Shown here one piece after another: positions 20,395-64,000 of a stretch of 64,000 nucleotides of DNA. A program made the position numbers and the translations under genes. Location: the NCBI GenBank assembly GCA_030704615.1, contig CM060734.1, positions 23,064,001 to 23,128,000 of the forward strand, in the 5' to 3' direction. How positions within the stretch are numbered: position 1 is the first letter of the stretch; each line of letters begins with the position of its first letter. The notes beneath the pieces are model-generated. The model saw nothing but the letters and a program-made list of their open reading frames with translations, was not told where the DNA came from and did not search any database. The DNA comes from Takakia lepidozioides. Its lineage: Eukaryota > Plantae > Bryophyta.

Positions 20395-20431
<37 letters not shown>

Positions 20432-35500: not shown

Positions 35501-36440
35501 ACTTTCACGGGTTTGATGCGTCCATACGGCCAACCAGAAGCAAAGAACCACAAGTTCTGGTTCTGCGCAGACAATTGTGGTAGATGTGTGCATGGAACTA
35601 TGCGTCCTTCCGTGGTGATGAAGCCAACTCCTCCAACCGTTTGGCCCGTCAAGGTGGGAACACATCTCACAAGTCAGGAGATTGCAATGCTGGAGGAGGC
35701 AGGCTTTTCCCTTGCGAGACAACCCCTACTGCATACATGTGTTTCTACTTCTGCGTCCTCTCGGGTCCCCCGGCAAATCCTCACTTGTGGCCAACCAAAC
35801 AAGATGGAAAGCTGGTTCGGCGTTTCCCTCCAACCGCTGAACACTTCGGCAAAGTGGAGTCCGCAAGAATGCTCCAAGCTCATGTTGCAAGCACCACGGA
35901 AGTGCCCGATCCAGGATATGGTCGGGTGTACACAATGATCACTTCGACATCTGCTGTTCATGACAGGGCATACGACATCACGGTTTCCAATTTTCCCAAT
36001 TGCACATGTCCTGATTTTGTGAATATGCTATCAACCAGTTTGGGCAAGAGAGGTAAATTCATACCCTGCAAACATTTGTATTTCGTATTTTTGAAGATGA
36101 TGGTTTGCGATCCCAAATGTGACAACTTCGTTCACCAGGCCACTCTGAGTTTCAACGAGGTCGATACTCTATTGCAGCGGGATACAACACATATGTAGCA
36201 TCAACTATGCCATGTGGTATATGGACGATCATGCTATGAAATGTGCAATTTGCAACATTGTCATGGAAAGTCAATTCAAATCAATTCGTTTGCAACATCG
36301 TCGGCGGTGCAATGATATGACATCCCTTATCCCTCCATTTAGCATTTGCCACCACATCAGCCTGCTTACATCACGCTCACGCCACATCACTCCTGCGAGA
36401 GCGTACGCTCACGCGCAAGGCTCACGCCATTGCGTCGTTG
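29560..36440 (+). mobile_element. MULE copy B (5'-truncated), transposase split by nested copy C
   Basis: The N-terminal part 29590-30393 continues at 33612 (CLAL|CGARMYY). Intron 34697-34813; SWIM ends at 36198. 3' TIR ...GCTCACGCCATTGCGTCGTTG at 36440. Confidence 0.85.
30394..33601 (-). mobile_element. MULE copy C, internally deleted, with both TIRs, nested antisense in copy B
   Basis: Termini CAACGACGCAATGGCGTGAGC and CAGGGATGCCTCGGCGTGAGC. 10-bp TSD CCTGG(C/T)GCTG at 30384-93 and 33602-11. Retains the DDE-SWIM half (33118-30970). Confidence 0.88.
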
Positions 36441-40595: not shown

Positions 40596-40599
40596 TCAT

Positions 40600-41990
40600 A
40601 AAGCCGGTCGCTTCATTTTCAAAACATTTAAAATAAATAAGCGACCGCCAGCATAGGCGGTCGCTTCATTTTCAAAACATTTAAAATAAATAAGCGACCG
40701 CCAACATAGGCGGTCGCTTCATTTTCAAAAACTTAAAATAAATAAGCGACCGCCAACATAGGCGGTCGCTTCATTTAAAAAATATTTAAAATAAATAATT
40801 GACCGCCAGCATAGGCGGTCGCTTCATTTTCAAAACATTTAAAATAAATAAGCGACCGCCAGCATAGGCGGTCGCTTCATTTTCAAAACATTTAAAATAA
40901 ATAAGCGACCGCAACATAGGCGGTCGCTTCATTTTCAAAAACTTAAAATAAATAAGCGACCGCCAACATAGGCGGTCGCTTCATTTAAAAAATATTTAAA
41001 ATAAATAATTGACCGCCAGCATAGGCGGTCGCTTCATTTTCAAAACATTTAAAATAAATAAGCGACCACCACCATAGGCGGTCGCTTCATTTTCAAAAAC
41101 TTTAAAATAAATAAGCGACCGCCAACATAGGCGGTCGCTTCATTTCCAAAATAATTAAAATAAAAGCGACCGCCAGCAATGGCGGTCGCTTCATTTCCAA
41201 AATAATTAAAATAAAAGCGACCGCCAGTAATGGCGGTCGCCCATTTCCAAAAATAAAAAAAAATAAAAGCTAGTAATGGCGGTCGCTGCATCTTAAAAAA
41301 TAACCATTACAGCGACCGCCATAAATGGCGGTCGCTGCATTTTGTAAAAACAAAGTCTGCCAGTAATGGAAGTGAGGGGAGAATGACTGGGGGCTTATAT
41401 GCCCCCCCCCCCCCCCCCCGCCTCATTCCTCGCTCCACGTGCAAGGTTGACCTTGTAGAAGCGACTGCCACTATGGCGGTCGCTCCATTTAAAAACAAAA
41501 AAAAACGACCGCCAGTAATTGCGGTCGCTGCATTTATAAAAACAAAAAAGAACTTCAAGTGAAGTGAGGGGAGAATGTCCCGGAGCTTATATGCCCCCCT
41601 CCCCCCCGCCTCACTCATCGCTCAATGCGCAGGGCACACTTCGTAGAAGCGACTGCCACCTTGGCGGTTGCTCCATTTTCATTTTCAAAACAATTAAAAT
41701 ATAAGCGACCGCCATAAATGGCGGTCGCTCCATTTCCAACCAAATTTCAATAAAACCGACTGCCACTAATGGCGGTCGCTGCAATTACAAAAAACAACAA
41801 TAACGGCGACCGCCCATAATGGCGGTCGCTCCATTTTGATCCAAAAAAACAAAAAAGCGACCGCCAGTAACAGCGGTCGCTTCATTTCCAAAATAATGAC
41901 TGGGAGCTTATATGCCCCCCTCATTCCTCGCTCCACACGGAGGGCAGACCTCGTAGAAGCGACCGCCACCTTGGCGGTCGCTCCATTTAA
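40600..41990. repeat. ~53-54-bp tandem array, core AAGCGACCGCC-N6-GGCGGTCGCTT
   Basis: Directly visible; AT-rich linkers are near-identical. Confidence 0.95.
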
Positions 41991-42254
41991 ATAAAAATGA
42001 ATGCACAGTTGGAAGCATGGTACAATTGTTCTCCATTCCACAAGCAAATCACTGAACACAAACATGAGCAAATGACGGTGCCTTGGCCGACATTTTGGCT
42101 GGTATACACATGGGCAACATCTTTTATTTTCCAACACATACACAACAGCAATACAAATACTTATAGTGACAATGATCACATTGGTATTACTTCAGTACAG
42201 AAATATAAACATGTCTACTAAAAAATGCTGATGCATGCCTACAGCTATTTTGCT

Positions 42255-45018
42255 TCAATTCCTTCTACTGCTTCGACGGCAGGACGAAGAAGATCCTAAT
42301 CATAATGCTCCGATGGGTTGAAAATCCGGGTCACCTTCGACTTCACCACCATTGCCATGATCAGTGTTGGAATTGTCCTCCCTATCCGACCTCATATGTC
42401 CTGGCCTTTGAATCTGCAAGCGACCTCGAACCACATTTAATTCTCTCTGAGGTCGACTCCCGCTCTGGTCTTGATTACTATCCACGGTATCTGCCCCTGT
42501 TTGTGGGCCGATCACCTACAAAAGGTTGGACTATTCTCTGTCGTTTATGGACTTGGGACGCAATCTCAGGTGGTCGGAGGGGGGACTGCCCGAGATGGAC
42601 CGACATTAGATGGTCCGGCATGTGAGGAACCACGGGTCTGCTACGCAACACGTCGGTTAAGGTGGAATTGTAGTGGCAGGTTGTCATCATCCGAGGCTTC
42701 AACTTCCGTCCGGTCCAATGCAGCAGAATGATGCATGCGTGTAGAAAACAGATCAACCCTGTTGCTCCTTAATGCCCGCTGTGTTGATGGGGAGCTGATC
42801 GGTTTTGGCATTGTGGTGGAGCTGGTCGTATCGGTGAGGCATGATCCCGTCCCGTCGACTGTACAATGGGTTCGATACCATCGTTTGTATGAACATGATT
42901 GCGTACGTCGATCGGTCCTGGCAGTACATCACCCTTAAGCTCCATTGGGGCACTATCGGTGGCTTCAGCGTGTAGTAGGGGGCGAGGATCGACCCCAACT
43001 TCATTTTGAGGACCATGTTCTAGGGATGACACAATTGCAGCTTCACCTTCATCTGCGATACGCATTTCTTCAAGAAGGTCATCAAAGGTCGGCTGGATAT
43101 AAGCATCATCCTCTGTGAATGTAAACGGGTCATACGCATTTTCGGGAGCATCATCGGATCCATCTTCACTATCAGAGGCAGATGATTCCCTCTGAGATGA
43201 TTCTCTCTGAGGCTCAGTATCGTCACTCATCGAATCAGCCTCAGAAGTAGAGTCTTCGGAATGCAAATTCCTCTTATACCATGCTGCAACATCATCCGCT
43301 GCCCTCTCACATAGCAGTCGGCAATTGGTATACACATACACCAATTTGTCAGCCCTCGCGGGATTCAACCTGTTGCGAATCTTGTTGTGAACAAATGAGT
43401 AACTGCTCCAATTGCGTTCGCAAGATGAGGCAGATCACACTTGAGCAAGAATACGCTTCGCAATGGGAGCCAATGTTCTTGCTCTAGCTCCAATCAGATC
43501 CCACCATTCATGTGGCAGCATATTGAGCTCTTTTGGATCCGGCATGTCCTCAAAAGGGTCGCGGCGATCTGAGAAGCATTGGTACTCGGATATAGCTCTC
43601 TCTGCATGGTTCGGCGGAGCCAGTCGCATGAGCACTCGCACGAGGCCGGCCTTGGCATCGGCGTCGTCTCGGAGCATAGTATTGTCGAGCAATAATGGAT
43701 TGAGCAAAGCCCCCGCATAATGCAAGTCCGTTCGAACCATCGAACGACGGTCGTAAAATGCATCCTCAGCACTGTCCGCAAGTTCAGGTTCCAAGGAGAA
43801 GGGAATATGCCTCAAGGATTAGATGTGTTTCTCAAGATTTTGCATTAGTAACCATGCCTTGCCCATTACTGGTTGCTTTCCATCAAACTCCCGCAAGACG
43901 ATTAACACCGACTCAACCATATAAACAAAGTTTTCACATTTCTTTCAGAAATCATCGTTGCGAATGCTATTTCGAACTTTTTGACTTTTGCCCAATGACT
44001 TGGCTTTCCTGGAGTCCCGCAATGTCCGTGTGTACGCATCCCATTGAAGATCGATGATGGTGTGCTCCAGACTGCTCTTCACTGTCACCAACCGATCCAC
44101 CATTAAGAAGTTAGTTGCAAAACGAGTTTCACCTGGATTGCGGAGGCTGTATTTGGGTTTGTGCCTCCTATATATTGCCAAAGGGATGTGGTGTGTGCGG
44201 ATGAATGACACAACAGTCTTCGCTCGCTTGACAAGTTGTTTCACCCACTGTTCTTTTCCCCAATCTTCCATAAGGAGGTCAAGGATATGAGCAGCACAAC
44301 CTTGATAGTACATATAGGGATAACGTGCCAACAACATATCTGCAGTGTTTCTCATGTTAGCAGCATTGTCTGTGCATATTTGCACGATTCTATCAGTTCC
44401 GACCTGTTCAATGAAGTCCGTCAATAGTTGACATTGATAACGTCCATCTTTCTTCTCGCCGCTAGTGTCGACCGATCCCAAGAATTGTTCCCCAGCTGGA
44501 CATACGAGCATGACATTGATCAACGGTCTGTTTGTGACAAAACTCCAACCATCGGCACATATAGTGCTTCCATATTTTCTGATGCACTTGCCCGTCCTAT
44601 CGTTGACATTTTGGGTACAAATCCTTTACTCCGTTGAAGTGTAGGGGTACAAAGAGGTGTTGAAACAGGTGTTGCTCCGGCACAACCCACTTGTCCAAGG
44701 ACACCCGAAGCCTCACAAGAGTCGCCCTGGGTACTAATTGGGGCATCCTGACGGGAAGATGGAGTGTTCTGCTCAGAGGTCATGTCCAGATCCAAAGACA
44801 TTGGAATATTGCCTCCACACTGGGCAAAGTGGATTTTTACCCGCATAGATGTTTTGGGGCATAAACCCACCCCAGCGCTCTTCACACCTTTATAGGTGAG
44901 CGAGCAACCGATCCTTACGATAAGAAAGCTTTAATCCATATAGGTTGCACTCAACACTACCAGTGGCACTGACAGTGTTCGGGATTGCCGTATACCAAGG
45001 GCTCCATTCCTCCATCAT
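42255..45018 (-). pseudogene. hAT transposase (BED finger, DUF659-like catalytic region, hAT dimerization domain, disordered tail)
   Basis: ECNLxGLKLSYRKDRLLAHL (BED), DGWSFVTNRPLIN, QICTDNAANM, GCAAHILDL, ETRFAT, EWW...CSASSCERNWS. Several stops, and an internal deletion at ~44555. Confidence 0.9.
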
Positions 45019-45439
45019 CTTCACCCAATATCCACTCCCCTGGGACCTAGCGATGCAAGCAACAAAAAACAGTCTCCTATAAATGAACGTGTTATGAATA
45101 TAGAGTGCAATGCGATAGCCCAACACTTCACCTGTTAGCAACCCAAGTGGGTCGATGTGGGTTGTAGTGTTGAGCTTATACACAATCTGCTGAAGTGAAA
45201 GCCACAACGGCAAAATGTGCGCACCCTCCTCTTGGGCTACACTCTCGTTCAATGGAAGAGAACATCCAAAACAACCTCAAGTGTTTGCGCCAAAAGAAGT
45301 GAGGAGCTTGGTGACCCTCCTCCCTTATATATGCTCCAAAAGGGATGAAAGTGAAATGAAAGTGAAATGAATAAATGACGAACCAATAGCGCCCACTCGA
45401 AAAAAGCTGTACAACCATATTTGTTGTAATTTTGAAATT

Positions 45440-46640
45440 AAGCGACCGCTAATACTACAGTCGCTACTTTTTTTTTAATGAAAAACAAGCGACCGCCACT
45501 ACTGCGGTCGCTTTTATTTCCTTTCATTTTGTGCAATATTGCGGTAACTTCTATTTTGTATATTTTTAAATTTAAGCGACCGTCGGTATGGCGGTCGCTA
45601 TTATTTTTTATTTCAAAATATAATGCGACTGCCGGTATGGCGGTCGCTTCATTTGTTAATATATTTAAAATAAAGCGACCGCCAATATGGTGGTCGTTTT
45701 TATTTTTAATATTTAAAAAAAAAAACGACCGCCAGTAAGACGGTCGCTTTTAATCTTTATATTTTATGGCGGTCGTTTGTTTTTCTATATATTTTTTAAA
45801 TTAAGCGACTGCCCAATGGCGGTCGTTGTTTTTTTTATATATTTTTGAAATTATCCGACTGCCATATGGCGGTCGCTTGTTCTATACATATTTACAAAAT
45901 TGTGTGACCGCCAATACGGCAGTCGCTTGTTTTCTTTTTAAAATAAGGCGACCGCCAATGCGACCGCCAATCTTGTTTTTTTTTAAAATAAATTGAAGCG
46001 ACCGCCAAGATAGCGGTCGTTATTTCTTTTTTTAATTCGAAAAATAAAGCGACCGCCAGTGCGACCGCCAATCTTGCTTTAAAAAAAAAAAAATTGAAGC
46101 GACCGCCAATATGGCGGTCGCTATTTTTTTTTCTATTTCGAAAAATAAAGCGACCGCCAGTGCGACCGCCAATCTTGCTTTAAAAAACAAAATTGAAGCT
46201 TTTAATTTCGAAAAACAAAGCGACCGCCATAATTGGTGGTCGCGTTCATTTTGTTAATTTTCAAAAATGTATTTGTCACCGTGCGACCGCCAATACGGCA
46301 GTCTTTTGTTTTTTTTTTTCAATTAGGCGACCACCAATACGCCCGCCAATCTTGTTTTTTCTTAAAAATAAATTGAAGCGACCGCCAACATAGCGGTCGC
46401 TATTTATTTTTTTAATTCGAAAAATAAGACGACCGCCAATCTTGCTTTAAAAAAAAAAACATTTGAAGCGACTGCCAATATCTCGGTCGCTATTTCTTTT
46501 TCTATTTCGAAAGAAAAAACTACCGCAACTGCGACCGCCAATTTTGCTTTAATTTTTTTTTTTTTGAAGTGACCGCCAATACGGCGGTCGCTATTTCTTT
46601 TTTAATTTCGTAAAACAAAGTGAATTGGCGGTCGTGTTCA
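45440..46640. repeat. Subterminal GCGACCGCC palindrome array of hAT copy 1
   Basis: Same core motif as 40600-41990, more degenerate. Confidence 0.9.
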
Positions 46641-46819
46641 TTTTGTTAATTGTATTTGCCACCGCCACCGTGTCGGCGACGTGGCTGCTTAAGTGACAGT
46701 ATTTTACCTGGTACTATTTTTACCAGAATATTTCCCGAACCTGACGTGACGGAGGTCCCGTCAGCGTCAGGTCTGACGTGACCTGACGCTGACGGACGGA
46801 CGTGACGCTGATAACCGGG

Positions 46820-48739: not shown

Positions 48740-49030
48740 TGGAACCAGCCCCATTCACAGTAACAATGACAGATCAAAAGAGTGTACAGCCATTGGGCTT
48801 GATAAGAGGAGTAAAGATACAGATTCAGAAGATGAATTTTAAGATCACAATGATTGTGTTGAAAATGGATAATGTCATGGAAGCTTACTCCTTATTGCTG
48901 GGTCGACCATGGCTGAAACAGGCCAAGGTATTCCATGACTGGAATTCCCAGTTACTGACTGTGTATGATGGGAAGCACAAATACAAATCACCACTAAGAA
49001 ATCTAGTAGGCTACATGCTACCAGAAGACC
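48740..49030 (+). mobile_element. Ty3/Gypsy protease fragment
   Basis: QPLGLIRGVKI...YSLLLGRPWLKQAK. Confidence 0.7.
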
Positions 49031-49159
49031 TCGAGGAGTCAGAGAGTATGACTGGAGGGGAGGACTTGATGAAGAGCAAGAGGCTATTCTGTTTGCTGCA
49101 CACCCAGAGTGGGAGCAGGTTGCAGAAATGTAACTGGGAGGACTGAGTTGTTTCAAGGG

Positions 49160-49600
49160 TATATGTTGTGTTTTGGAGGGTCGAAATCTCGTGTACTGTG
49201 CATCCATGACTGATACAGATTCTCTCATTCTGTTGGTGTAATTCCCGCTAAGGGTTGTCCTATGTAGGCGTTGAACTATGAAAAATTAGTTAGAGAAAGA
49301 GAGACATCTATCCTTGCTAATAAAAGTCACCGTAAGTTATTGCGAGTACAAGTGGGAAAAAAGAGACATAGGTACTGGTTCTATGGCTGACAACTGCATA
49401 AGGCTTGCTCGCTTATGCACTGTTGCTACTAGACATCAGGCAATTGCATCTTGAAACAGCAAGTAACACATGAAGTGGGGATGGGGTGGGACAGTGCAGG
49501 AAAGAGCCTGGTTGTTGAAGTGTTGATGCTGCGGCAAGTGTTGTCAATTGGGAAGAAGACACTCTTAGTGCTGCCTGATGTGGCTCTATGCTCCGAGAAG
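49160..49600 (+). pseudogene. TEB: Two-exon fragment of TEBICHI / DNA polymerase theta helicase domain (Walker A region)
   Basis: VLEGRNLVYCAS (49170-49206) and acag|(S)[35 protein letters not shown]|gttgga (49495-49600). No other exons were recognised. Confidence 0.7.
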
Positions 49601-49899
49601 GTTGGACTGCAACTTTTCTTACCCACTTTGTAGGACCTTATTTTATTGGGCAACAATCTCACCCCCCGTTTTGGTTTTTATAGCCTAGTTGCCTAGTTAT
49701 CATTCCTGACGTGACGTGGCGCTGACACGTCGGCCGTCACGTTCGACGTGCGTCACGTCACGTCGAATCCGGACGTTTATCCACGTAATTTTTTTTACAT
49801 TTGACTTTTACGATTTACTTCTACCCTTTGTAATGATGTGGCAGCCACGGTGTAAAACAGACGTGGCCAATTATTAATATTTATTAATTCTTTTAAAAA

Positions 49900-50510
49900 A
49901 ATGAGTCCGCCTATATTGGCAGTTGCATATAATTTATTATTTTAAATAAAAGCGACCGCCCATATTGGCGGTCGCTTGTAATTTAATATTTTGTTAAATT
50001 AAGCGACCGCCAGTATTGGCGGTCGCCGGTAATTTATTTATTTATAAATGAAGCGACCGCCCATATTGGCGGTCGCCCGTAATTTTAAAAAAAAAATGAA
50101 ACGACTGCCGAAATTGGCGGTCACCCGTATTTTATTTATTTTTAAATGAAGCGACCGCCAAAATTGGCGGTCACCTGTAATTTATTTATTTTTAAATGAA
50201 GCGACCGCCCATATTGGCGGTCGCCCGTAATTTATTTATTTTTAAATGAAGCGACCTCCCATATTGGCGGTCGTCCGTAATTTATTTATTCTTAAATGAA
50301 GCGACGGCCCAAATTGGCGGTCGCCCGTAATTTATTTATTTATAAATGAAGCGACCGCCCATATTGGCGGTCGTCCGTAATTTATTTATTTATAAATGAA
50401 GCGACCGCCCATATTTGCGGTCGCCCGTAATTTATTTATTTTTAAATGAAGCGACCGCCCATATTGGCGGTCGCTTGTATTTTATTACATTTTAAAATAA
50501 GCGATCGCGT
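49900..50510. repeat. Subterminal ~50-bp palindrome array (GAAGCGACCGCCCATATTGGCGGTCGC)
   Basis: About 11 tandem units directly visible. Confidence 0.95.
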
Positions 50511-51130
50511 GTTTTTTTTTTTCTTAGAAATCCAGGGACCCGCCGTGTGGCGTTTTGTTTTTTATTTTTAATCATGAAGCGGCGCTTCGGCCAGCCACGT
50601 GGCGAGGTGCCACGGGTCAGGAAAAACGAAACAAATGGGATGGGGGGAGGTGGTTTTGAACCCTTGACCTCTCCTATGTGGGTGCGCGTGACGAGGTGTG
50701 ACTGGCCAGTCGTGCCGCGCTGACACGTGGCGAGGCGTCACTAGCCTGCCGCGCATTTTCAAGCATAATGCCATTTTTTTTGGGGGGGGTGCTGGTGGGC
50801 GCCTATATAAACCATTCCCCCCTCATTTTCTGATCACTTTTGCCCCTCTTGTGGTGTGGTTCCTTGACATCCTGTAGTCCTTTCGGACTTCGTTGCTTGG
50901 CATTGCCAACGGGAGGTGCAAAGGTGATTACTTGGGGGGGGAGGTTTTGTCGGTTTTCTATTGGTCAATCCCACACACTTGTTCACGGTACAATCATCGT
51001 ATCACCATTTTGCCGTTTCCGGATCTCCGGCGGCCTGTTTTTTTGCAGAAAACTACGAAGACACCATCCACACGCGTTCATTGCCATTTTTCTAAGGTTT
51101 TGGACCCTGTAGTGGGCAAAGGTTTATACA

Positions 51131-52614
51131 ATGTCGGGGGTTGTGAATTCAAGTTATGGGGCGGGATCGTCTGGGAGGCGGAGGAAGAGAAAACGTGCCC
51201 ACGATCGGGATAGCCAGGTCAACAAGTCAGACTACCCGAGACCGGATGCCTTGGATAAGGTGAAAGAAGTGGTAGCGGATTATTTCAAGGGTAGGGACAT
51301 GATGAGGCTGGAGAGTGCTTATGTTAGGCATGGATGGGAGGGGTTTCAGATTTTCCAGCAAAATATGGAGAGGAAAATGACAAACGCTTTGGCAGGGGCT
51401 AAGTGGACGGCGGACAAGGACAAGCCGAAGTTCAATCGGTGGATCCAAAGCAGGGCGAAAGACGCCACGTGAAATTTGAGGCAGCTAATGAAGACATGGA
51501 AGGGTAGAACAACCGAGGGTCGAGTGCCCTCCGCCGAAGCCGAGTTACCTCCGCCGAAGCCGAGTTAATGTGGCGTGTTGAGTATTGGGCTTGCTCGGCA
51601 AGTCAGAATTCACATCGCTGGACTAGGGTTGTCCCTTGGAAGGCGGGGTCATCGGACGGGGGATGCACAATTGGTCTTTATTACCTGAACTCTAGTGCGA
51701 AGGTGGTAGAGATTGGCCCTTACAAAGAAGGAGGGTATGCTAAGGTCCGTCACTGTAGGATTGTTGGCGATTCTAGAATACCGGAACGTTGGGAGCTAGC
51801 GGGAAAAAAACCCGAGTCCAAAAATCCAGAAAATGCGTTGAGACAACATAACGACGAGTGTTTGGCAGTGAAGTTCCAGCATCCGGGTGTTATCTCGTAT
51901 TTTGCTGTGAATACACGTGAGGTCGAGGGTTACACTCGTTGGTGGAATGGGGGGACAATATGCGACATGATGAACCTTGACAGAAAATGGGGCAACGATT
52001 CGGACAACATGATGATTTTGGAACAAAGGGGAAAGGAAGCAGAGTTCCGGGAATACGATCGCTTGTTTCGTTTCCGGAAAGTGCGTAGTAAATTTGCATG
52101 GGCACTGGTGTGCATCATGGATGTTGTCCACAAGAACGGTGTCCTGCACAACGACTTGTCCCCTGACAACATCTTGTTGCATTTTCCAGATGGCACCGAG
52201 GAGATCAAGATTGGGGTGTGTGATTGGGGCTTAGCCACCCCATTGGGCATATGCAAAGCCTCGCCGTACCAGTTTGAAAACCAAGACAAGCTGGACCAGG
52301 AACTCGCGAAAATATGGTGGGTGAAAAAAGATATTGCATCAGTTTTCAATGCGAATGCCACGCCTTCCCCCCCCCAGGACATAACGTCGGAGGCCTTTGC
52401 CGTTGGGAAGATAGCGGTACGAATAAATGGCGGCGTTCATTATGATCAAAGTATGTTCCAGGACCAATTTACGGGAGGTTGTTGGCATTCAATGCTACAA
52501 AGGTTGTACGACAACAACAAGAATGAGAGAGTCACATTAGCCCATGTAGTACTTCGGTTCATGGGCAAGCCATTCAATTGGCCTGAGCCGAAAGACGTAT
52601 ATAGGGCGGAGTAG
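51131..52614 (+). pseudogene. Intronless Ser/Thr-like protein kinase (~487 aa reconstructed)
   Basis: EGGYAKV, LAGKK, HNDLSPDNILL and CDWG. In-frame TGA at 51470 and a 20-bp tandem duplication (51528-51567) split the ORF. TATA-like CCTATATAAA at ~50802. Confidence 0.85.
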
Positions 52615-52699
52615 ACCATAGTCTCGTAGATATGACATTTCTGACGGTACAATGGTTCTTTTATGAAGACATAACTCAATTTTGATCATGCATGTAATA

Positions 52700-53226
52700 A
52701 ATAAAGTCCCATTGTAAATACTACATTGCATATGCTCGACCCTGACACCTGTCATCGCAACATAAATGGTTTGTGTACTGGCTCACTGTTTATATTTGTA
52801 ATGTTCCAAGGTTTCGGATAGGGTTATGAGAAAACGATGTATTAGTTTCGTAGGAGTTAGACAACAAACGTCTTCTCTTATTCAACTGTGCGACACTACC
52901 ATGAGAGGCATGGATCGGAAAGTAATAGGTGCACATGCGACCTCCGAACGTTTGATACTAGGTCTCTACTTAAACGTGCGGAGGTCGCATGTACACCTAT
53001 TAATTTTTTATCCATGCCACTCATGGTAGTATCGCACAGTTGAATGAGATATGGAACGTTTGTTGTCCAACTCCTATGGATCCAATATATCATTTTCTCA
53101 GTACCCTATCAGAAACATTGAAACATTCGCAGTTACAAACAGTGCCACAATACACGGTCGGTTTTGTTGAAATGACATTTGTGATGTTCGAGCGTATGCA
53201 ATTTATTATTTACAACGGAATTTTAT
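52700..53226. repeat. Long imperfect inverted repeat (~255-bp arms, 18-nt loop 52954-52971)
   Basis: For example ATTCAACTGTGCGACACTACCATGAG pairs with CTCATGGTAGTATCGCACAGTTGAAT. Confidence 0.9.
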
Positions 53227-53494
53227 CTACTCGGGGGACCGGTACTGATGTTGGAGCGCAACTGATGGTGCGAGTTCTCTATTGATTGGAGCTGTCACAA
53301 CCAACTCTATGAAGAGTGCATAAAGTAGAACACAAATCAAGTTTGGAGTTCAAAACAGGGAAGAACTGTGGTTTTGGGTCCAAATGAATTTTGATCGCTC
53401 CCAAATTTGTCACGCACGTTGCATATGGCTACATTACACGCCCCATTCAAAAACAGAATGAAAAAAAAAAATCGTGAGCACGCGAAACACAGTC

Positions 53495-53860
53495 CAACAA
53501 AATATATTCAACGGGTGAACGGATGGTTGCCCATCCAAATCATTTTTGTTAGCTTCCAAACTTTGCCAGCACGTTCCAGACACCCTCTCACAGGTCTTGG
53601 ACTAATATCAGATCAATCGAAATTCATTCGATGGCTCAACGGATGGTTGGCCATCGAAATGATTTTGGTTCGCTTGGAGACTTGGCCACTATGTTCAATG
53701 TGCCATGTAAGAGGCCATATGAGATCAATCGAAATTCGTTCAATGGGCCAACGGATGGTTGCCCATCCAAATGATTTTCGTTCGCTTTCAAACTTGGCCA
53801 GTGTGTTCAATGTACCCTCTGATACGTCCTAGTGTAATATGAGATCAATCGAAATTATTT
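53495..53860. repeat. ~115-bp tandem repeat (3+ copies)
   Basis: Recurring GATCAATCGAAATT...AACGGATGGTTG(C/G)CCATC. Confidence 0.8.
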
Positions 53861-54303
53861 TGTGCTTTGAGAACTTTGTTGGTATGTTTGTAGAAAGATC
53901 ATAGATTTTGCGAAATGATTATGAAATACGCAGGGACCAGGCGAAATTTGTTTGGAAGATGACCGTTCGTAACTCGTTATAACTTACTTGTTAACATCAA
54001 TTTTCCTTGTTCTCCAGCTTTCAGAGTTCATTGCAAATACCCATATACACGTCACGACCAAATATAACACCATTGTAAATTTGTTTACAGGGTGAACTAC
54101 TTCTTCCCCATCACACGAGTGTAAATGTGAAGAAAACGCTGCTCATGCAATTGAAATTGGCAGGTGCCGCACAATGCATTATGTATTAACAAAATTGGTG
54201 ATATAAAAACTTGGCGGAATGCCATCACTGTGTTTTCCAACAATATTCAAGGTACAACAAAAATGCATATTGTATATGTACTATGATGCCAGTCATTCAA
54301 AGC

Positions 54304-56510
54304 CTAGTCGTCACTGTCCGAGGACGTGGAATTTGATGTTGTGGCCTGATTTGCACTGCCAATTGCCAAAGCTTGCGACCGTGATCTCGTGGTCAATGAG
54401 AGGCCCAACGGCATGTGATCAATTCTAGCCTGCATCCGCCTACTTTGCGGTGAAAGTTGACTTTCTTCTTCACTCTCACGACGTGGCGGAGGTGGATCGA
54501 GAACAAGTGCTCGGACTGCATGCAAATCGGCAACGAGGCCGTCCACATCCGGCAATACAGCCCCCGAAACATGATGATAACAGTCTGTCCATAATCGCCT
54601 CCATTTCTCTACAACTGCCTTAATGGTACTTTTGAAACTTTCCAACTGCTTCTTGCGGGCCCTGTCCCTAATCATTGTGTCGTTTCGACGATAAGCCGCC
54701 TCGTACGCATCATTCATTCGGCGTTGACATATTATAGCATCTTCCAGTTCGGACAGCAACAAATGTCTCCCAATCGGTTGTCGGTCATACAATTCGTTCT
54801 CCTCCGGCACCCATGGAACCTGTGGGAGCCGGATAAACCTGGACCTTCTTTGACTCCAATGCCCTACTAGATTGCGGCAAAACTGCTCTCTCTCCCACCA
54901 ATCTCGAATACCTCCCGCACGTATGGTTATCTCCCAATCAGATGTGCCCCAGAAATACTGGGGATCTTTGATGTATGCCGGGTTTCCGGCATGTATGCCA
55001 TGCATCTCTCTGTCTGCATCCCATACCAAGTTCTTGCCCCAATGCACACAATTTAGAAATGTGTATGGTAGCCCATCCAATGGGATGTTGTGTTGATTGT
55101 ATTCAAAACCTATGGGCATCCGATCCTCCAAACCCACCAGCTCATAAAAACGACGATGGATTGGTGTACGACATTCTGGGCAAGCGCTCGTCCGCAAGGC
55201 TTGCGGGATAAGACATGTGAGATGGAACATATGTCCACATGATCCAAGCACATAACATCCCTCTGGGCCGTATGGATTCCTACACATCGAACAAACTATG
55301 TCATCTGATATCCATGACGACAAAACGCCTCGTGGTATCTCCTCCCTCTGGGCCGGTTTGATATGACTGGTCATCCTTCTTGTGGTGTCCCACTCTTCCT
55401 CTATCTCCAATTCCCAGTTTATGCTTCTGTTCGACCCCGAAATTCTGTGCTCACATCGATCGAACATAGAATCCACATTTATCCAATTGGTATACCCGGC
55501 GAACACGCTTGATGCGATGCGGAGATCGTTATACCTTTGCATGTTGGCATAAATGCTATCCACGTTACGGTTCGACATGCGTGCGACACGCTGCAAGCCT
55601 GACAGTGCCCGCTCTACCCGTGCTTCTTTGGAGGCCAAATGGGTCGCGCATTGTACCCAATTCTCCCAATCACCATTCAATGGGACCTATGCCTGAATCT
55701 CCAGCGTTTTGGACAAGCGCCATGCAGTTGCCATGGCAATGTCCCGCTCCTTTGTAACGCGGTCGACATCTAATATCGGGTTCATCTCCGATTGAATGGT
55801 GACCCTCGAGCATTCCCTGGTTTCCAGTACTGGTTTTTTTCCTTTCCTCCTTCTCTCATCCGTAATTCGCTGTTCCTCAACCATGGTTTCATCGGCCACA
55901 GAGTCAAAGACGTCCGTAACTTCCTGAATGATGAGGTCAATACTGCGATCGGGCATCGCAAACTCCGAGTCCATGTCCACGACGTTTGTTCGATCCTCAT
56001 TGTGGACAACAGTGCCTTCATTGTTCGGAGGCATGTCTTGCAATGTAGCTTCCAACTCGGATATGCGTAGTGTTTGCCAGTCTAGTCGGTCTTGTAGGGT
56101 CCTGATTCGCTGGTCTCTTTCCGCTAGTTGTTCCTCTAACGTTGCAGCCGGTTGTATTCCGAACGTGTCCGGGATGTACTCCAAATCGTATAGCAACCTT
56201 GCGTTCCTCCTACTAACAGTTTGTCAATTCACTGGACGCAAGAGTATGACCTCCACGTACAACATGGCTGCCAAGGTGTATGGGATCTGACCCTTTAAGA
56301 GAGGTTGACCCCACCATGTGCAATGCACCTCATTCGCCCTATGCTGAAAATGCAAGTTCGTGCAAGACCTGGACTCTGCGTAATTGTTTCGGGTTTGCAC
56401 GTCATGCCTATCCAAAGGCCACAATCGATCCCTTTGATTTTCTTAGGGGGCGGTCCATGGTCATTGGGGTCATCTCTTCCATGACGGTCATCGTCCTGGC
56501 CCTCTGCCAT
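54304..56510 (-). pseudogene. Intronless coiled-coil + RING-H2 protein (putative E3 ligase, ~730 aa reconstructed)
   Basis: CSMC...CGHMFHLTC...CPEC (C3H2C3) and the coiled coil LEEQLAERDQRIRTLQ. ORFs join through a frameshift at ~56300 and in-frame stops at 56224 and 55687. Confidence 0.8.
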
Positions 56511-57629
56511 TCTACAACAATCGGAGCAACACTAAACGAGGTTTTCTAAAAAGACGTAACTCTAAACCCTTTTCCCGTTAAGTAGGTTTGAGTAAGTATC
56601 AAAATACTTCCTAAAAGCTAATTTTGTTAAATAAAATGATTTTGGAAGCCAGAGGAGGGCCTATGGGAGCATTCTGCAACGACCTCACAGAAATCGCGAC
56701 AAAAACTACCCCTACCCAACCAATGGCCTCCTTCTCCACGTGACTACGTGTGTCACGGCCCTTTGCCTTGAGGGCAGGGGGTCGGGACACATGAGGGGCT
56801 GCCCCTGTGGTGGGGGCAGCGGCAGCGGCAGCGATAGGTTATGGGGGGCTGAAGCACCCCTTGAGTGCCCAAGGCACCAATGAGGCGGAGGCGCTCACTA
56901 GGTGGAGCCCCGCACACCGGTTGCGGTAGGGGGCTCCACAAGGTGGTGGTAGCTTAGCGGACTTAGTGGGGTGGCATAGGACTCACCATGGGGGCGGAGA
57001 CCTCGTGGTGGGAGTCGGGGGGAGTCGATGGTACTCAATCGCAGTCCAGAGGTGCCGTGGTGAGTGGGCCAAGACTCACCGCGACTCATCACCGGGAGTC
57101 GAGAGTTTTTCGTGGTGGTTCGCCATAAAATGGCATGGCTGGTTGTGAAACCCCCGCGGACGCTACAGAAGTATATATAAGGGGGAGTAGTGACGCCCGA
57201 GAACAGTGCACCCGTTGGTGACCAAAACTAGTGAGTAAGCGAGCGAGCCGGAAAGCGACCAAATAGTGGGGAGCTGTTCCGGACTGCCATCTACAACGGA
57301 ATTCTCCTAGGCCCCAAATAGGGAGGGTTTAGTGGGAAGCGAAGGGAGGACCGTTATTCCCGGTGAGCAGCCGAAGCTCCAAGTTGGCCCGGGCGGCCCA
57401 GGTTGGGAGTCAGGCGCGCTCATTGGGCAGTAACTATGACTTGAAGGGGGAGCTTTACCGAAGTGAGTGCGCGGACAACGTGTCGTTGAATAATTAAATG
57501 TCACGCACACATAAGTTGTGTGGAGAGGAAGAGAGGGAGAATAAGCCTCTCTTGGTTATTTCATTTCGGCCGCCCCCCCTAGAAGCACCCATTTCCGGCG
57601 ACACAAACTAGCCAGGGCTAATCTTCTAA

Positions 57630-59300
57630 AAAGCGACCACCATTGGCGGTCGCTTCATTTTCAAAATAAAAAAATATAAGCGCACAACATAAAATTGCGG
57701 TCGGTACTTTTTAAAAAAATTAAAAAAAATAATCGAACATAGGCCGCTTCATTTTCAAAAACTTTAAAAGGCGGTCGCTTCCTTTTAAAAAAACCTTAAA
57801 CATAAATAAAAAAATAAGCGACCGCCAACAAACGGCGGTCCCGCTTCAAAACTTTAAAACTCGAAACACATTTAAAATAATAAAAATAAGCTACCGCCAA
57901 CATAGGCGGTCGCTTCATTTTCAAAACATTAAAAAAAACAATATCGCTTCCAAAAATCTAAGGCGTCGCTTCATATAATTTTTTTTTTAAATTTTTTTAA
58001 AAAAAAAAAAATTAGCCGACCGCCAACAAATAGCGCGCTCGCGTTCACTTTCAAAAACTTTAAAAAAAAATTACGAACCGCAATATAGGCGGTCGCTTCA
58101 ATTTAAAAAAACTTAAAAAAAATAGACCGCCAACATAGGCCAGCTAGGCGCCGTCGCTTCCTTAAAATTCCAAACATTTAAAATAAAATAAGCGACCGCC
58201 AACATACGCGGTCGCTTCATTTTCAAAACTTTAAAATAAATAAACGACCCGCGATTTTCAAAACATTTAAATAAGCGTTTCCTTATACAAAAAAAGTTCG
58301 TCATTTTTCAAAATAATAAAAAGACCGCCAACCATAAGCTACCGCCCGCATAGGCGGTCGCTTCCTGTTCAACACAGTTAAAGATCTAGCTCGGACGACT
58401 GCCAACACGGGCGGTCGCTTTTTTAAAACATTTAAAATAAATAAGCGGCCGCCAACAACATGCGGTCGCTTCATTTTCAAAACTTTAAAATAATAAACAA
58501 CCGCCAACATAGGCGGTCGCTTCATTTAAAAAAAAATAAAAAATAAGCGACCGCCAACATAGGCGTGTCGCTTCATTTTAAAAAAATTAAAAAAAAGCGA
58601 CCGCCAACATAGGCAGTCGCTTCATTTTAAAAAATTAAAAAAATAAGCGCCGCCACAACATGGCGTCGTCTTTTTTTCAAAACATTAAAAACAAAAGTGA
58701 CCGCCAACGTAGGCGGTCGCTTCATTAAAATTAAAATTAAAATAAATAAGAGAGACCGCCAGCATAGGCGGTCGCTTCATTTAGAAAATATTTAAAATAA
58801 ATAAGCGACCGCCAACATAGGCGGTCCGCTTCATTTTCAAAACATTTAAATAAGCGACCGCCAGCATAGGCGTTCGCTTCATTTTCAAAACATTTAAAAT
58901 AAATAGCGACCGCCAGCATAGACGGTCGCTTCATTTTCAAAAATCAAAAAAAACATTTAAAAATAAATAAGCGACCGCCAACATTGGCAGCTACGCTTCA
59001 TTTTCAAAAACTTTAAAAAAAAAAGCGACCGACAGACATAGAGCAAGCCAGGATGAGTCAGGACTTCAATTTTCAAAACTTAACAAAAAAAAACCGACCG
59101 CCCAACATAGGCTTCAGCTTCATTTTTAAAAAAATTTAAAAAGCAAATAAAGCTACCGCCGCATAGGAAAGGGCTGTCGACTGTCATTTCAATCAAACAT
59201 TTTAAATAAATAAGTGATCGCCACATAGGCGGTCCCGCTGTTTATTTCCCCAAAATAAATTAAATAAAATAATCGACCGTTAGTAATGGCGGTCGCCCCA
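57630..59300. repeat. Internal GCGACCGCC palindrome array, indel-rich
   Basis: Same unit as 40600-41300. Confidence 0.9.
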
Positions 59301-60680
59301 TTTTCCAAAAATAAAAATCTAAAAGCGTATAGTGCACAGTAATTGTCGGGGGTCGCTGCATTCTGTAAAAACAAAAACTGCCAGTAATGGAAGTGAGGGG
59401 AGAATGACTGGGGGCTTATAGCCCCCTGCCCCCACCTCCCCGCCTCCATTCCCTCGCAATCCATGGCAGGGCATTTAAAACAAAAAAAAAGCGACCGCCA
59501 CCAAAAAAAAACGACCGCAACAAATGGCGGTCGCTCCATTTCGCCAAAAAAAGAAAAAAAATCGACCGCCAGTAATGGCGGTCGCTCCATTTATAAAAAC
59601 AAAAAAAAACTTCAAGGGAAGTAAGGGAGAATGTCCCGGAGCTTATATGCCCCCCTCCCCCCCGCCTCACTCCTCGCTCCATGCGCAGGTCACACTTCGT
59701 AGCAGCGACCGTCACCTTGGCGGTCGCTCCATTTAAATAAAAATGAATGCACAGTTGGAAGCATGACACAATTGTTCTCCATTCCACAAGCAAATCACCG
59801 AACACAAACATGAGCAAGTGACGGTGCCTTTGGCCGACATTTTGGCTGGTATACACATGGGCAACATCTTTTATTTTCCAACACATACACAACAGCAATA
59901 CAAATAGTCTTAGTGACAATGATCACATTGGTATTACTTCAGTACAAAAATATAAACATGTCCACTAAAAAGTGCTGATGCATGCCTACAGCTGTTTTGC
60001 TTCAATTCCTTCTACTGCTTCGACGACGGGACAAAGAACATCCTAATCCTAATGCTCCGATGGGTTGAAAATCCGGGTCACCCTCGACTTCACCACCGTT
60101 GCCATGATCAGTGCTGGAATCGTCCTCCCTATCCGACCTCATATGTCCAGGTCTTTGAATCTGCAAGCGACCTCGAACCACATGTAGTTCTCTATGAGGT
60201 CGACTCCCGCTTCGGTCTTGAATACCATCCACGGTATCTGGCTTGTTTGTGGGCCGATCGCCTACAAAAGGTTGGATTGTTCTCTGTCGTGTATGGACTT
60301 GGGACGCAATCGAAGGTGGTATCGAAGGAGGTACCAGAGGGGGGACTGCCCGAGATGGACCGGCATTAGATGGTCCGACATGTGAAGAACCACGGGTTGG
60401 TTAAAGTGGAATTGTAGTGACAGGTTGTCATCATCCGAGGCTTCAACTTCCGCCTGGTCCAATGCATCAGAATGATGCATGCGTGTGGAAAACAGATCAA
60501 CCCTGTTGCTCCTTAATGCCTGCTGTGTTGATGGGGAGCTGGATCGGTTTTGGCATTGTGGTGGAGCTGGTCGTATCGGTGAGGTATGATCCCGTTTCGT
60601 TGACTATACAATGGGTTCGACACCATCGTTTGTATGAACAGGGTTGCGTACGTCGATCGGTCCTGGCAGTACATCACCCC
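59260..60680 (-). repeat. Tandem partial duplication of the hAT transposase 3' tail and downstream region (duplicate of ~60690-62480)
   Basis: Near-identical to 61500-62480 and 41990-42935. Confidence 0.85.
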
Positions 60681-61789
60681 TACATAATTAAAATAGAAAC
60701 GACCGCCAGTAATGGAGGTCGTCCATTTCCAAAAATAAAAAAATAAAAGCGACTGCTAGTAATGGCGGTCGCTGCATCTTAATAAATAACCATTACAGCG
60801 ACCGCCATAAATGGCGGTCGCTGCATTTTGTAAAAACAAAACCTGCCAGTAATGGAAGTGAGGGGAGAATGACTAGGGGCTTATATGCCCCCCCCCCCCC
60901 CCTCATTCCTCGCTCCACGCGCAAAGTTGACCTCGTAGAAGCAACCGCCACCATGGCGGTCGCTCCATTTAAAAACAAAAAAAAAACGACCGCCACAAAT
61001 GGCGGTTGCTCCATTTCGCCAAAAAAAAAAAAAAAAAACGACCGTCAGTAATGGTGGTCGGTGCATTTATAAAAACAAAAAAGAACTTCAAACGAAGTGA
61101 GGGGAGAATGTCCTGGAGCTTATATGCCCCCCTTCCCCCCGCCTCACTCCTCGCTCAATGCGCAGGGCACACTTCGTAGAAGCGACTGCCACCTAAGCGG
61201 TTGCTCCATTTTAATTTTCAAAACAATTAAAATATAAGCGACCGCCATAAATGGCGGTCGCTCCATTTCCAACCAAATTTCAATAAAACCGATTGCCACT
61301 AATGGCAGTCGCTGCAATTACAAAAAACAACAATAACGGCGACCGCCCCTAATGGCGGTCGCTCCATTTTGATCCAAAAAAACAAAAAAACGACCGCCAG
61401 TAACAGCGGTCGCTTCATTTCCATAATAATGACTGGGAGCTTATATGCCCCCCCCCCCCCCTCATTCCTCACTCCACGCGGAGGGCAAACCTCGTAGAAG
61501 CGACCGCCACCTTGGCGGTCGCTCCATTTAAATAAAAATGAATGCACAGTTGGAAGCATGGTACAATTGTTCTCCATTCCACAAGCAAATCACCGAACAC
61601 AAACATGAGCAAATGACGGTGCCTTGGCCGACATTTTGGCTAGTATACACATGGGCAACATCTTTTATTTTCCAACACAACAACAATACAAATACTCATA
61701 GTGACAATGATCACATTGGTATTACTTCAGTACAGAAATATAAACATGTCCACTAAAAAGTGCTGATGCATGTCTTCAGCTGTTTTGCT

Positions 61790-64000
61790 TCAATTCCTTC
61801 TACTGCATCGACGGCAGGACGAAGAAGATCCTAATCATAATGCTCCGATGGGTTGAAAATCCGGGTCACCTTCGATTTCACCACCGTTGCCATGATCAAT
61901 GCTGGAATCGTCCTCCCTATCCGACCTCATATGTCCTGGCATTTGAATCTGCAAGCGACCTCGAACCACATTTAGTTCTCTCTGAGGTCGACTCCCGCTT
62001 CGGTCTTGAATACCATCTACGGTATCTGGCCTGTTTGTGGGCCGATCGCCTACAAAAGGTTGGACTGTTCTCTGTCGTTTATGGACTTGGGATGCAATCG
62101 AAGGTGGTCTCGAAAGAGGTACCGGAGGGGGGACTGCCCGAGATGGACCGACATTAGATGGTCCGGCATGTCAGGAACCACGGGTCTGCTACGCAACACG
62201 TCGGTTAAGGTGGAATTGTAGTGGCAGGTTGTCATCATCCGAGGCTTCAACTTCCGCTCGGTCCAATGCATCTGAATGATGCATGCGTGTGGAAAACAGA
62301 TCAACCCTGTTGCTCCTTAATGCCCGCTGTGTTGATGGGGAGCTGATCGGTTTTGGCATTGTGGTAGAGCTGGTCGTATCGGTGAGGCATGATCCCGTCC
62401 CGTCGACTGTACAATGGGTTTGACACCATCATTTGTATGAACAGGGTTGCGTACGTCGATCAGTCCTGAGAGTACATCACCCCTAAGCTTCATTGTGGCA
62501 CTACCGGTGGCTTCAGCGTGTAGTGGGGGGGCGAGGATCGACCCCAACTTCATTTTGAGGACCATGTTCTGGGGATGACACAATTGCAGCTTCACCTTCA
62601 TCTGCGATACGCACTTCTTCAAGAAGGTCATCAAAGGTCGGCTGGATATAAGCATCATCCTCTGTGAATGTAAACGGGTCATACGCATTTTCGGGAGCAT
62701 CATCGGATCCATCTTCACTATCAGAGGCAGATGATTCCCTCTGAGATGATTCTCTCTAAGGCTCAGTATCGTCACTCATCGAATCAGCCTCAGAAGCAGA
62801 GTCTTCGGAATGCAAATTCCTCTCATATCATGCTGCAGCATCATCCGCTGCCCTCTCACGTAGCAGTCGGCAATTGGTATACACATATACCAATTTATCA
62901 GCCCTCGCGGGATTCAACCTGTAGCGAATCTTATTGTGAACAAATGAGTAACTATTCCAATTGCGTTCGCAAGATAAGGCAGAGCACACTTGAACAAGAA
63001 TACGCTTCGCAATGGGAGCCAATGTTCTTGCTCCAGCTCCAATCAGATCCCACCATTCATGTGACAGCATATTGAGCTCTTTTGGATCCGGCATGTCCTC
63101 AAAAGGGTCGCGGCGATCTGAGAAGCATTGGTACTCGGATATAGCTCTCTCTGCATGGTTCGGCGGAGCCAGTCGCATGAGCACTCGCACGAGGCCGGCC
63201 TTGGCATCAGCGTCGTCTCGGAGCATGGTATTGTCGAGCAATAATGGATTGAGAAAAGCCCCCGCATAATGCAAGTCCGTTCGAACCATCGAACAACGGT
63301 CGTAAAATGCATTCTCAGCACTGTCCGCAAGTTCAGGTTCCAAGGAGAAGAGAGGATGCCTCTAGGATTGGACGTGCTTCTCAAGATTTTGTATTAATAA
63401 CCATGCCTTGCCAATTACTGGTTGCTTTCCATCAAACTCCCGCAAGATGATTAACACCGACTCAACCATATAAACAAAGTTTTCACATTTCTTCCATAAA
63501 TCATCGCTGCGAATGTTATTTCAAACTTTTCGACTTTTGACTAATGACTTGGCTTTTCTAGAGTCCCGCAATGTCCGTGTGTACGCATCCCATTGAGGAT
63601 CGATGATGGTGTGCTCCAGACTGCTCTTCACCGTCACCAACCCATCCACCATCAAGAAGTTAGTGGCAAAACGAGTTTCACTTGGATTGCGGAGGCTGTA
63701 TTTGGGTTTGTGCCTCCTATATATTGTCAAAGGGATGTGGTGTGTGCGGATGAACGACACAATAGTCTTCGCTCGCTTGACAAGTTGTTTCACCCACTGT
63801 TCTTTTCCCCAATCTTCAAAAATGAGGTCAAAGATATGAGCAGCACAACCTTGATAGTACATATGGGGATAACGTGCCAACAACATGTCTGCAGTGTTTC
63901 TCATGTTAGCGATATTGTCTGTGCATATTTGCACGATTCTATCACTTCCGACCTGTTCGATGAAGTCCGTCAATAGTTGGCATTGATAACGTCTATCTTT
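61790..64000 (-). pseudogene. hAT transposase, copy 2 (5' part outside window)
   Basis: QICTDN, GCAAH, ETRFAT, EWW and CERNW motifs; collinear with copy 1; contains stops. Confidence 0.9.

What the first reader, a model, noticed from the sequence alone, without database searches (positions are those of the whole stretch)
49692..64000. Large hAT transposon carrying a kinase + RING-H2 cargo pair
Seen: the order is TIR (CCTAGTTATCA, matching the copy-1 end at 46819), palindrome array, kinase (+), long fold-back, RING-H2 gene (-), the same palindrome array, then the hAT transposase. By collinearity with copy 1, the right end should lie ~2.4 kb past the window, giving an element of ~16-17 kb. Both cargo genes are intronless and full-length, with only 2-3 lesions each, so they look like the element's own genes rather than Pack-TE exon scraps. 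Established: hATs normally encode only a transposase; accessory genes are known in VANDAL MULEs (anti-silencing VANC), fungal Starships and nematode Mavericks. Inference: an undescribed cargo-bearing hAT family whose phosphorylation/ubiquitination pair might act in anti-silencing, host manipulation or a toxin-antidote system. No function is shown here.
Basis: partly seen in the sequence, partly recalled or inferred. Interest (0 to 1): 0.9.

Follow-up and report, generated by a model that had tools for sequence, protein, structure and literature searches.

The report
Jumping gene carrying kinase and ligase
This is a dead copy of an abundant cut-and-paste (hAT) transposon from a plant-like genome that carries, besides its transposase, its own protein kinase and its own RING ubiquitin-ligase-type gene; relatives elsewhere carry the same set, and the extra genes likely help the element switch itself on against host silencing, which is untested.

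Summary
Observation largely confirmed. 49692 is a real terminus of a multi-copy element: summed contig depth jumps 168 to 22,741 there, and 16 contigs leave it into unlike flanks. The kinase, RING gene, palindrome arrays and DUF659/hAT transposase are present. The right end and TSD lie outside the window and could not be checked; a junction at 60682 may join two copies. Relatives supply the main support. In metagenome contigs found with the kinase, a hAT transposase lies upstream on the same strand in 7 of 19 distinct loci (0 of 20 downstream) and the RING gene in 9 of 19. Two loci have 11-bp TIRs of the same register plus 7/8 TSDs. The moss Ceratodon holds dispersed near-identical kinase copies. 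Catalytic residues are invariant; dN/dS is about 0.14-0.22 between families. The RING protein has a new, well-folded N-terminal domain. A palindrome array sits upstream of each gene, with a motif that differs between families, recalling VANDAL/VANC anti-silencing. No function is shown. Verdict: new variant of hAT with dedicated accessory genes, not found in ten literature searches; earlier notes of this scan saw related elements.

The parts
49684..49691 (+). Left flank octamer CCTAGTTG, presumptive target-site duplication (partner outside window)
   Evidence: Sequence; a contig of run X2 follows the flank to exactly 49691 and then leaves with 67 unlaid letters (record 9)
49692..49702 (+). 11-bp terminal inverted repeat, left end of the element
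   Evidence: Depth step 168 to 22,741 and 16 loose-ended contigs at 49692, agreement 0.39; same register as TIRs of relatives
49703..49880 (+). Subterminal region rich in TGACGT-like motifs
49880..50510 (+). Left palindrome array (50-bp unit), upstream of the kinase
51131..52614 (+). Intronless protein kinase pseudogene (helical N-terminal domain + kinase; one stop, one 20-bp duplication); TATA-like box at 50804-50811
52698..53229 (.). Degenerate fold-back (78%) between the convergent kinase and RING genes
   Evidence: depth like the kinase and bridged to it by an X5 contig
53305..53990 (.). Nested very-high-copy ~120-bp repeat, not part of the family core; ends approximate
   Evidence: depth 1.25 million in its bin; joint 53326-53994 in X1 and X2
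54304..56510 (-). RING gene pseudogene: novel N-terminal domain (partly deleted), coiled coil, RING-H2, conserved C-terminal domain
56751..57477 (.). Solo LTR (TG...CA, 5-bp duplication ACGTG) inserted in the RING upstream region
   Evidence: contigs of X1, X2, X5 join 56745 to 57478
57620..59600 (-). Middle palindrome array (about 53-bp unit), upstream of the RING gene, inverted relative to the left array
59512..60682 (-). First copy of the transposase 3' region, including the last ~48 codons (60538-60681); ends at a junction
60684..62316 (-). Second copy of short array and transposase 3' region
62317..64000 (-). hAT transposase pseudogene (DUF659 + dimerisation domain), runs off the window
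40598..46819 (-). Copy 1 of the family: right TIR, right array (45430-46620), transposase, middle array; kinase/RING end lost

Best explanation
This is a decayed copy of a three-gene hAT DNA transposon whose kinase and RING-H2 genes are conserved parts of the element, and these accessory genes likely serve to keep the element's own genes switched on against host silencing. Shown: the terminus, the three genes, their linkage in relatives, purifying selection on the kinase, and an array of palindromes upstream of each gene (architecture about 0.9). Inferred: an element-encoded protein (the new N-terminal domain of the RING protein, or the transposase itself) would bind the family-specific palindromes; the RING finger would ubiquitinate, and the kinase would phosphorylate, a host chromatin or silencing factor there; the transposase would then cut at the 11-bp TIRs and make 8-bp duplications (mechanism of the accessory genes about 0.45).
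For: Terminus. Linkage: transposase upstream and on the same strand in 7 of 19 distinct loci versus 0 of 20 downstream (Fisher p 0.003; 6/18 vs 0/19, p 0.008, when L064 and L068, which share flanks, are merged); RING gene in 9 of 19 versus 1 of 20. TIR + 7/8 TSD around transposase + kinase in L029 and L055, chance about 0.0014 each. Kinase Gly, Lys, Glu, catalytic Asp, Asn and DFG-Asp invariant in 34 of 34; open frame in 13 of 13 top loci and dN/dS 0.14-0.22 in the three between-family pairs with finite dS. All 15 listed members (of 126; 40 read) of one 90% cluster are distinct Ceratodon purpureus loci on several autosomes, U and V. Arrays: upstream of all three genes in the window, same orientation relative to the gene; motif clusters upstream of all three genes in L025 (pattern chosen by eye); a different GC-rich repeat just 5' of the TATA box in 8 of 9 intact kinase loci viewed, by eye. 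This matches the pattern described for VANC targets: oriented motifs in tandem arrays in non-coding regions, diverging between families (PMC5735166, passages). The N-terminal domain folds confidently (pLDDT 88) and also occurs without a RING in L004.
Against: No function, binding or expression is shown. The N-terminal domain has no Pfam family and no Foldseek match in PDB or the viral library, so no likeness to VANC was found; its charge is only mildly basic. Subterminal repeats are normal transposase-binding sites in hATs (recalled), and transposases alone can activate cognate copies (10.64898/2026.08.24.746577, passages), so the arrays need not involve the accessory genes. No single locus shows both TIRs, a TSD and all three genes; 8 of 19 long loci have neither transposase nor RING upstream; both TSD-bounded loci lack the RING gene. 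Within one family kinase dN/dS is 0.36-0.94, and 0.6 for the two window transposases. The loci were selected by the kinase, so kinase-free relatives were not sampled.
Confidence: 0.5

Rival explanations
1. The arrays are transposase-binding sites, and the kinase and RING protein regulate the transposition machinery itself (phosphorylation and turnover of the transposase or of repair and cell-cycle factors), not silencing.
For: The same motif lies at both termini, where hAT transposases bind (recalled). Transposase-only activation is reported for AtMu1 (passages). Protein-modifying passengers in other DNA transposons, such as Ulp1 in VANDAL/KIU (passage) and SUMO protease/F-box in Zisupton (recalled).
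Against: Does not by itself explain internal arrays placed upstream of the kinase and RING genes in two distant families, nor the RING-less N-domain gene in L004.
Confidence: 0.25
2. Kinase and RING form a toxin-antidote or spore-killer pair that favours spores carrying the element, as Spok genes do inside a Starship.
For: Two conserved enzymatic genes kept together; haploid-dominant hosts such as mosses would suit gamete or spore drive (inference; Spok recalled).
Against: No toxin-like domain was found; the kinase matches ordinary eukaryotic kinase folds at 11-15% identity. Kinase-bearing copies without RING exist (L029, L055), gene orientation varies, and a family dispersed over many chromosomes gains little from drive.
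Confidence: 0.12
3. The genes are passively captured host sequences (Pack-TE or retrocopy capture), amplified without function, as histone H3 in Dothideomycete hATs.
For: Every copy in the window is broken; intronless cargo also results from retrocopy capture (PMC6710886, passages).
Against: No host parent gene appeared among 51 kinase hits (27-44% identity); invariant catalytic residues and low dN/dS across families; same gene order in families too distant for DNA similarity.
Confidence: 0.05
4. About this locus only: 49692-60682 and 60684-beyond 64000 are two separate copies joined head to tail, not one insertion; this rival concerns extent and is independent of the function rivals.
For: The repeated 3' segments differ by 6.9%, as much as each differs from copy 1 (7.7% and 5.5%); abrupt junction at 60682.
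Against: A tandem duplication soon after insertion followed by equal decay gives the same numbers. The left unit already contains the last transposase codons, so kinase-RING-transposase linkage holds either way.
Confidence: 0.4

Closest known systems
hAT superfamily, DUF659-type transposases
   Same: DUF659 and hAT dimerisation domains, D-D-CxxH-E motifs, 11-bp TIR, 8-bp TSD in relatives, subterminal repeats.
   Different: Two extra conserved genes and internal arrays; predicted 11-17 kb against a typical ~5 kb (range up to 7.1 kb quoted in PMC6710886, passages).
Histone H3-carrying hAT elements of Mycosphaerellaceae (PMC6710886; passages read)
   Same: DUF659-type hAT of about 9.5 kb with an intronless passenger gene kept for a long time.
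   Different: There the cargo is a captured, RIP-inactivated copy of a known host gene; here two genes with no host parent found, conserved between families, with intact copies.
VANDAL/VANC anti-silencing system of Arabidopsis (PMC5735166; passages read)
   Same: Multi-gene DNA transposon; oriented short motifs in tandem arrays in non-coding regions, differing between families.
   Different: VANDAL is Mutator-like; no DUF1985 or other Pfam match for the N-terminal domain; VANC is not a kinase or RING; binding and demethylation untested here.
Spm TnpA and AtMu1 transposase self-activation (bioRxiv 10.64898/2026.08.24.746577; passages read)
   Same: Element-encoded factor activating cognate copies through repeated motifs is a candidate mechanism.
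   Different: Different superfamilies; no kinase or RING accessory mentioned in the passages seen.
Lanisha elements of Ceratodon purpureus (PMC8245031; passages and TE-annotation section read; supplement not available)
   Same: Moss cut-and-paste elements; the same paper reports hAT enrichment on the U and V chromosomes, where several kinase copies lie.
   Different: Counted apart from hAT in that paper; its gene content could not be read, so whether Ceratodon kinases sit in Lanisha or hAT is untested.
Spok/Starship and Zisupton (recalled, no call)
   Same: Large DNA elements carrying a kinase-domain protein (Spok) or ubiquitin/SUMO-pathway domains (Zisupton).
   Different: Different mobilising enzymes and hosts; no sequence link tested.

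Membership tests
hAT superfamily | hAT-type DDE transposase with dimerisation domain | tested here: met
   DUF659 E 1e-18 and 1e-33, Dimer_Tnp_hAT E 5e-5; motifs ADGWS, TDN, CAAH, SCERNW visible; only weak Hermes hits (E 0.6); all window copies are broken
hAT superfamily | Short terminal inverted repeats | tested here: met
   11 bp, 9/11 between the left end of this copy and the right end of copy 1; paired in L029 and L055
hAT superfamily | 8-bp target-site duplication | tested here: inconclusive
   7/8 in relatives L029 and L055; not testable for the window copy, whose right end is outside
hAT superfamily | N-terminal BED finger | tested here: inconclusive
   W...C..C...HL-like pattern visible by eye in copy 1 and L025; no Pfam hit
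hAT superfamily | Dispersed multi-copy insertion with sharp ends | tested here: met
   depth step and unlike flanks at 49692
VANDAL/VANC-type anti-silencing | VANC protein (DUF1985-related) in a Mutator-like element | tested here: not met
   transposase is hAT; no Pfam family for the N-terminal domain in 54 members; no Foldseek match
VANDAL/VANC-type anti-silencing | Family-specific motifs in tandem arrays in non-coding regions | tested here: met
VANDAL/VANC-type anti-silencing | Element protein binds the motif and removes methylation in trans | not testable with these tools
   needs binding and methylome experiments
Pack-TE / captured host gene | Cargo is a fragment or retrocopy of an identifiable host gene, evolving neutrally | tested here: not met
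   no host parent among hits; dN/dS 0.14-0.22 between families; the host genome itself could not be searched
Toxin-antidote / spore killer | Killing and rescue activities, segregation distortion | not testable with these tools
   no toxin domain seen
Lanisha | Lanisha transposase and termini (GenBank MT647524) | not tested
   description not available in the text read

The most novel reading that the evidence does not exclude
An old, widespread lineage of seed-free-plant hAT transposons encodes its own signalling module: a new sequence-specific DNA-binding fold fused to a RING ligase, plus a private kinase family, that reads family-specific palindrome arrays in front of each element gene and disables host silencing by ubiquitination and phosphorylation; an anti-silencing system evolved independently of VANC and TnpA.
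Probability: 0.3. Interest if true: 0.9.

Novelty: new variant of a known kind. Interest (0 to 1): 0.72.

Why it matters
hAT elements are regarded as single-gene transposons. A lineage that keeps a kinase and a RING ligase under selection across distant families would widen what DNA transposons encode and give a testable route to how they resist silencing outside flowering plants. It also means that many annotated 'protein kinase' and 'RING' genes in moss genomes (for example the dispersed Ceratodon cluster) are probably transposon genes that inflate gene-family counts. Ceratodon appears to hold intact near-identical kinase copies, so a laboratory moss may be available for testing.

Tried and rejected
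No whole genome was held, so the right end, TSD and copy census could not be examined. Single-sequence search with the RING C-terminal part found nothing; the profile-free library search and the alignment search did. Kinase alignment: no relatives in viral contigs or prokaryote genomes. RING alignment too variable for a contig scan, so no RING-first sample exists. N-terminal domain: no Atlas hit by features, no Foldseek match in PDB, one meaningless viral row; the wider structural search did not complete, so a remote fold match remains open. Expression: no RNA holder listed; guessed-RNA run X7 has a 1.9-kb contig over the transposase and next to nothing over kinase or RING, X8 only short pieces; this is no evidence either way. 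Summed depths over kinase, RING and transposase are alike in X1 (27-41 thousand) but are not copy numbers and the runs were found with the kinase-RING stretch. No right TIR with TSD found for L025, no left TIR with TSD for L064/L068; L079 has TIR-like sites whose flanks do not match. No Ceratodon names appeared in 20 RING-family clusters looked up, so linkage in Ceratodon is not shown. A kinase (P0107) and a RING protein (P0409) both list a longest contig of 11,439 bases: a hint only. Ten paper searches listed no description of this family; subscription papers and Repbase were not searchable. No complex prediction was run.
Full report
Setting. No genome is held for this window. The window is repeat-rich eukaryotic DNA with LINE, LTR-retroelement and SWIM-bearing remnants. 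Public runs holding the stretch are labelled organism A and a plant metagenome. The only named eukaryotic homologues are from the moss Ceratodon purpureus, at about 35% identity, so a seed-free plant host is an inference.

The observation. The end at 49692 reads CCTAGTTATCA and the end of copy 1 at 46819 reads CCCGGTTATCA on the other strand. The palindrome has 22 exact matches against 0 in shuffles. The kinase runs 51131-52614 with one stop and a 20-bp tandem duplication that contigs of X5 and X6 lack. The RING gene runs 56510-54304 with two stops and a frameshift; its N-terminal domain matches the family profile only from position 48 of 131. The transposase has DUF659 and dimerisation domains. 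Three things were missed: a solo LTR at 56751-57477, absent from contigs of three runs; a very-high-copy repeat near 53305-53990; and a repeat of the transposase 3' region with a junction at 60682. The two repeated segments differ by 6.9%, about as much as each differs from copy 1, so the stretch may be two copies. The left unit already ends in transposase codons.

Is 49692 a true end? Summed contig depth in X1 is 168 just outside and 22,741 just inside, and 16 contigs run out of 49692 into unlike sequence. One X2 contig follows the flank to 49691 and then departs. Depth stays at 5-52 thousand from the terminus through array, kinase and fold-back (lowest in the array). The longest X5 contigs differ from the window by 11/462 (kinase), 21/895 and 23/712 (RING), 13/548, 9/341 and 21/575 (transposase side), 2.3-3.7% throughout, as expected for one family of one age. 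No second terminus lies inside.

Relatives. A kinase alignment found 131 relatives in JGI metagenome contigs; the best 80 were kept and fall into 46 groups. Among the representative loci tabulated, 19 distinct ones have at least 5 kb upstream of the kinase and 20 distinct ones at least 5 kb downstream (23 listed, three duplicates dropped). A hAT transposase lies upstream, on the kinase strand, in 7 of 19 and downstream in 0 of 20 (p 0.003). The RING gene or its N-terminal domain lies upstream in 9 of 19 and downstream in 1 of 20. Five loci have all three genes (L075 only the N-terminal domain); eight have neither partner. The order is always transposase, RING, kinase; the RING gene points either way, and the kinase points outward there but inward in the window. 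Homology among loci stops sharply about 1 kb behind the kinase at TGACAACC(C/T)TG, and starts before the transposase at its complement in three of five left ends aligned. L029 (5,157 bp) and L055 (5,768 bp) have both TIRs and 7/8 duplications, chance about 0.0014 each; both lack the RING gene. L025 has left TIR, all three genes and the right subterminal region without the last TIR; L033, L064 and L068 have all three genes and the right TIR. No locus shows everything at once.

The proteins. The kinase family (51 hits) has a helical N-terminal domain and a eukaryotic kinase fold (pLDDT 86) with no close solved relative (11-15% identity). Six catalytic positions are invariant in 34 of 34 sequences. 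All 13 top loci have an open frame; dN/dS is 0.14-0.22 in three between-family pairs with near-saturated but finite dS and 0.36-0.94 within one family (14 of 91 pairs printed). One 90% cluster has 126 members; all 15 listed are separate Ceratodon loci on chromosomes 1, 2, 3, 4, 12, U, V and a scaffold; their neighbours were not seen. The RING family (151 hits; 76 hits) has full-length members of 730-1,150 residues: a conserved ~130-residue N-terminal domain, a variable linker and coiled coil, a RING-H2 (full pattern in 23 of 29 proteins checked) and a conserved C-terminal domain. The N-terminal domain folds at pLDDT 88 and matches nothing in Pfam, PDB or the viral library.

The arrays. In the window each gene has an array upstream, and the spacer of the palindrome reads the same way relative to the gene in all three. 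In L025 a related motif clusters before each of the three genes and at the right end (pattern chosen after looking). Eight of nine intact kinase loci viewed have a GC-rich repeat just before the TATA box, with a different motif in most families (judged by eye). VANC targets are described in the same terms (PMC5735166, passages).

Mechanism. Shown: mobility structure, linkage, conservation, array placement. Inferred: an element protein binds the arrays and the ligase and kinase act on host silencing or chromatin factors. I put the architecture at about 0.9 and this role at about 0.45. Regulation of the transposition machinery is the main rival, drive a weaker one, passive capture nearly excluded.

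Comparison. It is a member of the hAT superfamily by transposase, TIR and (in relatives) TSD. It works, at most, like VANDAL/VANC but fails membership. The nearest described cargo-bearing hAT carries dead histone H3 retrocopies (PMC6710886, passages). Lanisha of Ceratodon could not be compared; its supplement was unavailable and may bear on where the Ceratodon kinases sit. Ten searches of the open literature listed no description of this family. Two earlier notes of this scan describe related kinase-bearing hATs in other genomes; they are unchecked and not counted as support.

Verdict. Real, conserved, apparently undescribed multi-gene hAT lineage; this copy is dead and its right end unverified; function open. 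New variant of a known kind, interest 0.72.

Noticed in passing
window 30911-36257: A 2.2-kb inverted repeat pair at 92% identity around a ~0.9-kb loop, with a SWIM finger in one arm; looks like a Mutator-like element folded back on itself. A more distant copy lies at 2875-4203.
   Followed up: no
window 9754-24422: Several LINE copies (endonuclease, reverse transcriptase) in tandem and inverted, 82-98% alike, with a ~300-470 bp segment repeated four times.
   Followed up: no
window 53305-53990: A ~120-bp tandem unit with summed depth over a million in X1 and X2, some 30-40 times the hAT; probably a satellite or small non-autonomous element.
   Followed up: partly
window 56751-57477: Solo LTR of a very abundant family with 5-bp duplication; only copy in the window.
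   Followed up: partly
window 40598: Copy 1 begins abruptly inside its middle array, next to an integrase-like remnant; its kinase/RING end is gone.
   Followed up: partly
L004 683-1777 and 2051-3950: Intact gene with the N-terminal domain and a low-complexity tail but no RING, followed by a long fold-back and then an intact kinase; arrays before both genes.
   Followed up: partly
L010 3282-3854 (-): A 190-residue acidic ORF convergent with an intact kinase, with its own upstream tandem array at 4119-4420; possibly another accessory gene.
   Followed up: no
L025 14491-15466 (-): Broken NIF/FCP1-like phosphatase gene about 3 kb outside the element's right subterminal region.
   Followed up: no
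P0009, P0100, P0397, P0407: Family members are labelled as bacterial MAG or uncultured-bacterium proteins, one as 'DNA gyrase subunit A'; probably plant DNA in those records.
   Followed up: no
window 46000-64000: Differences between laid contigs and the window are mostly transitions, more often with A or T in the window (A>G 160, T>C 190 versus C>T 103, G>A 69 in X1), as expected from decay of methylated DNA.
   Followed up: no
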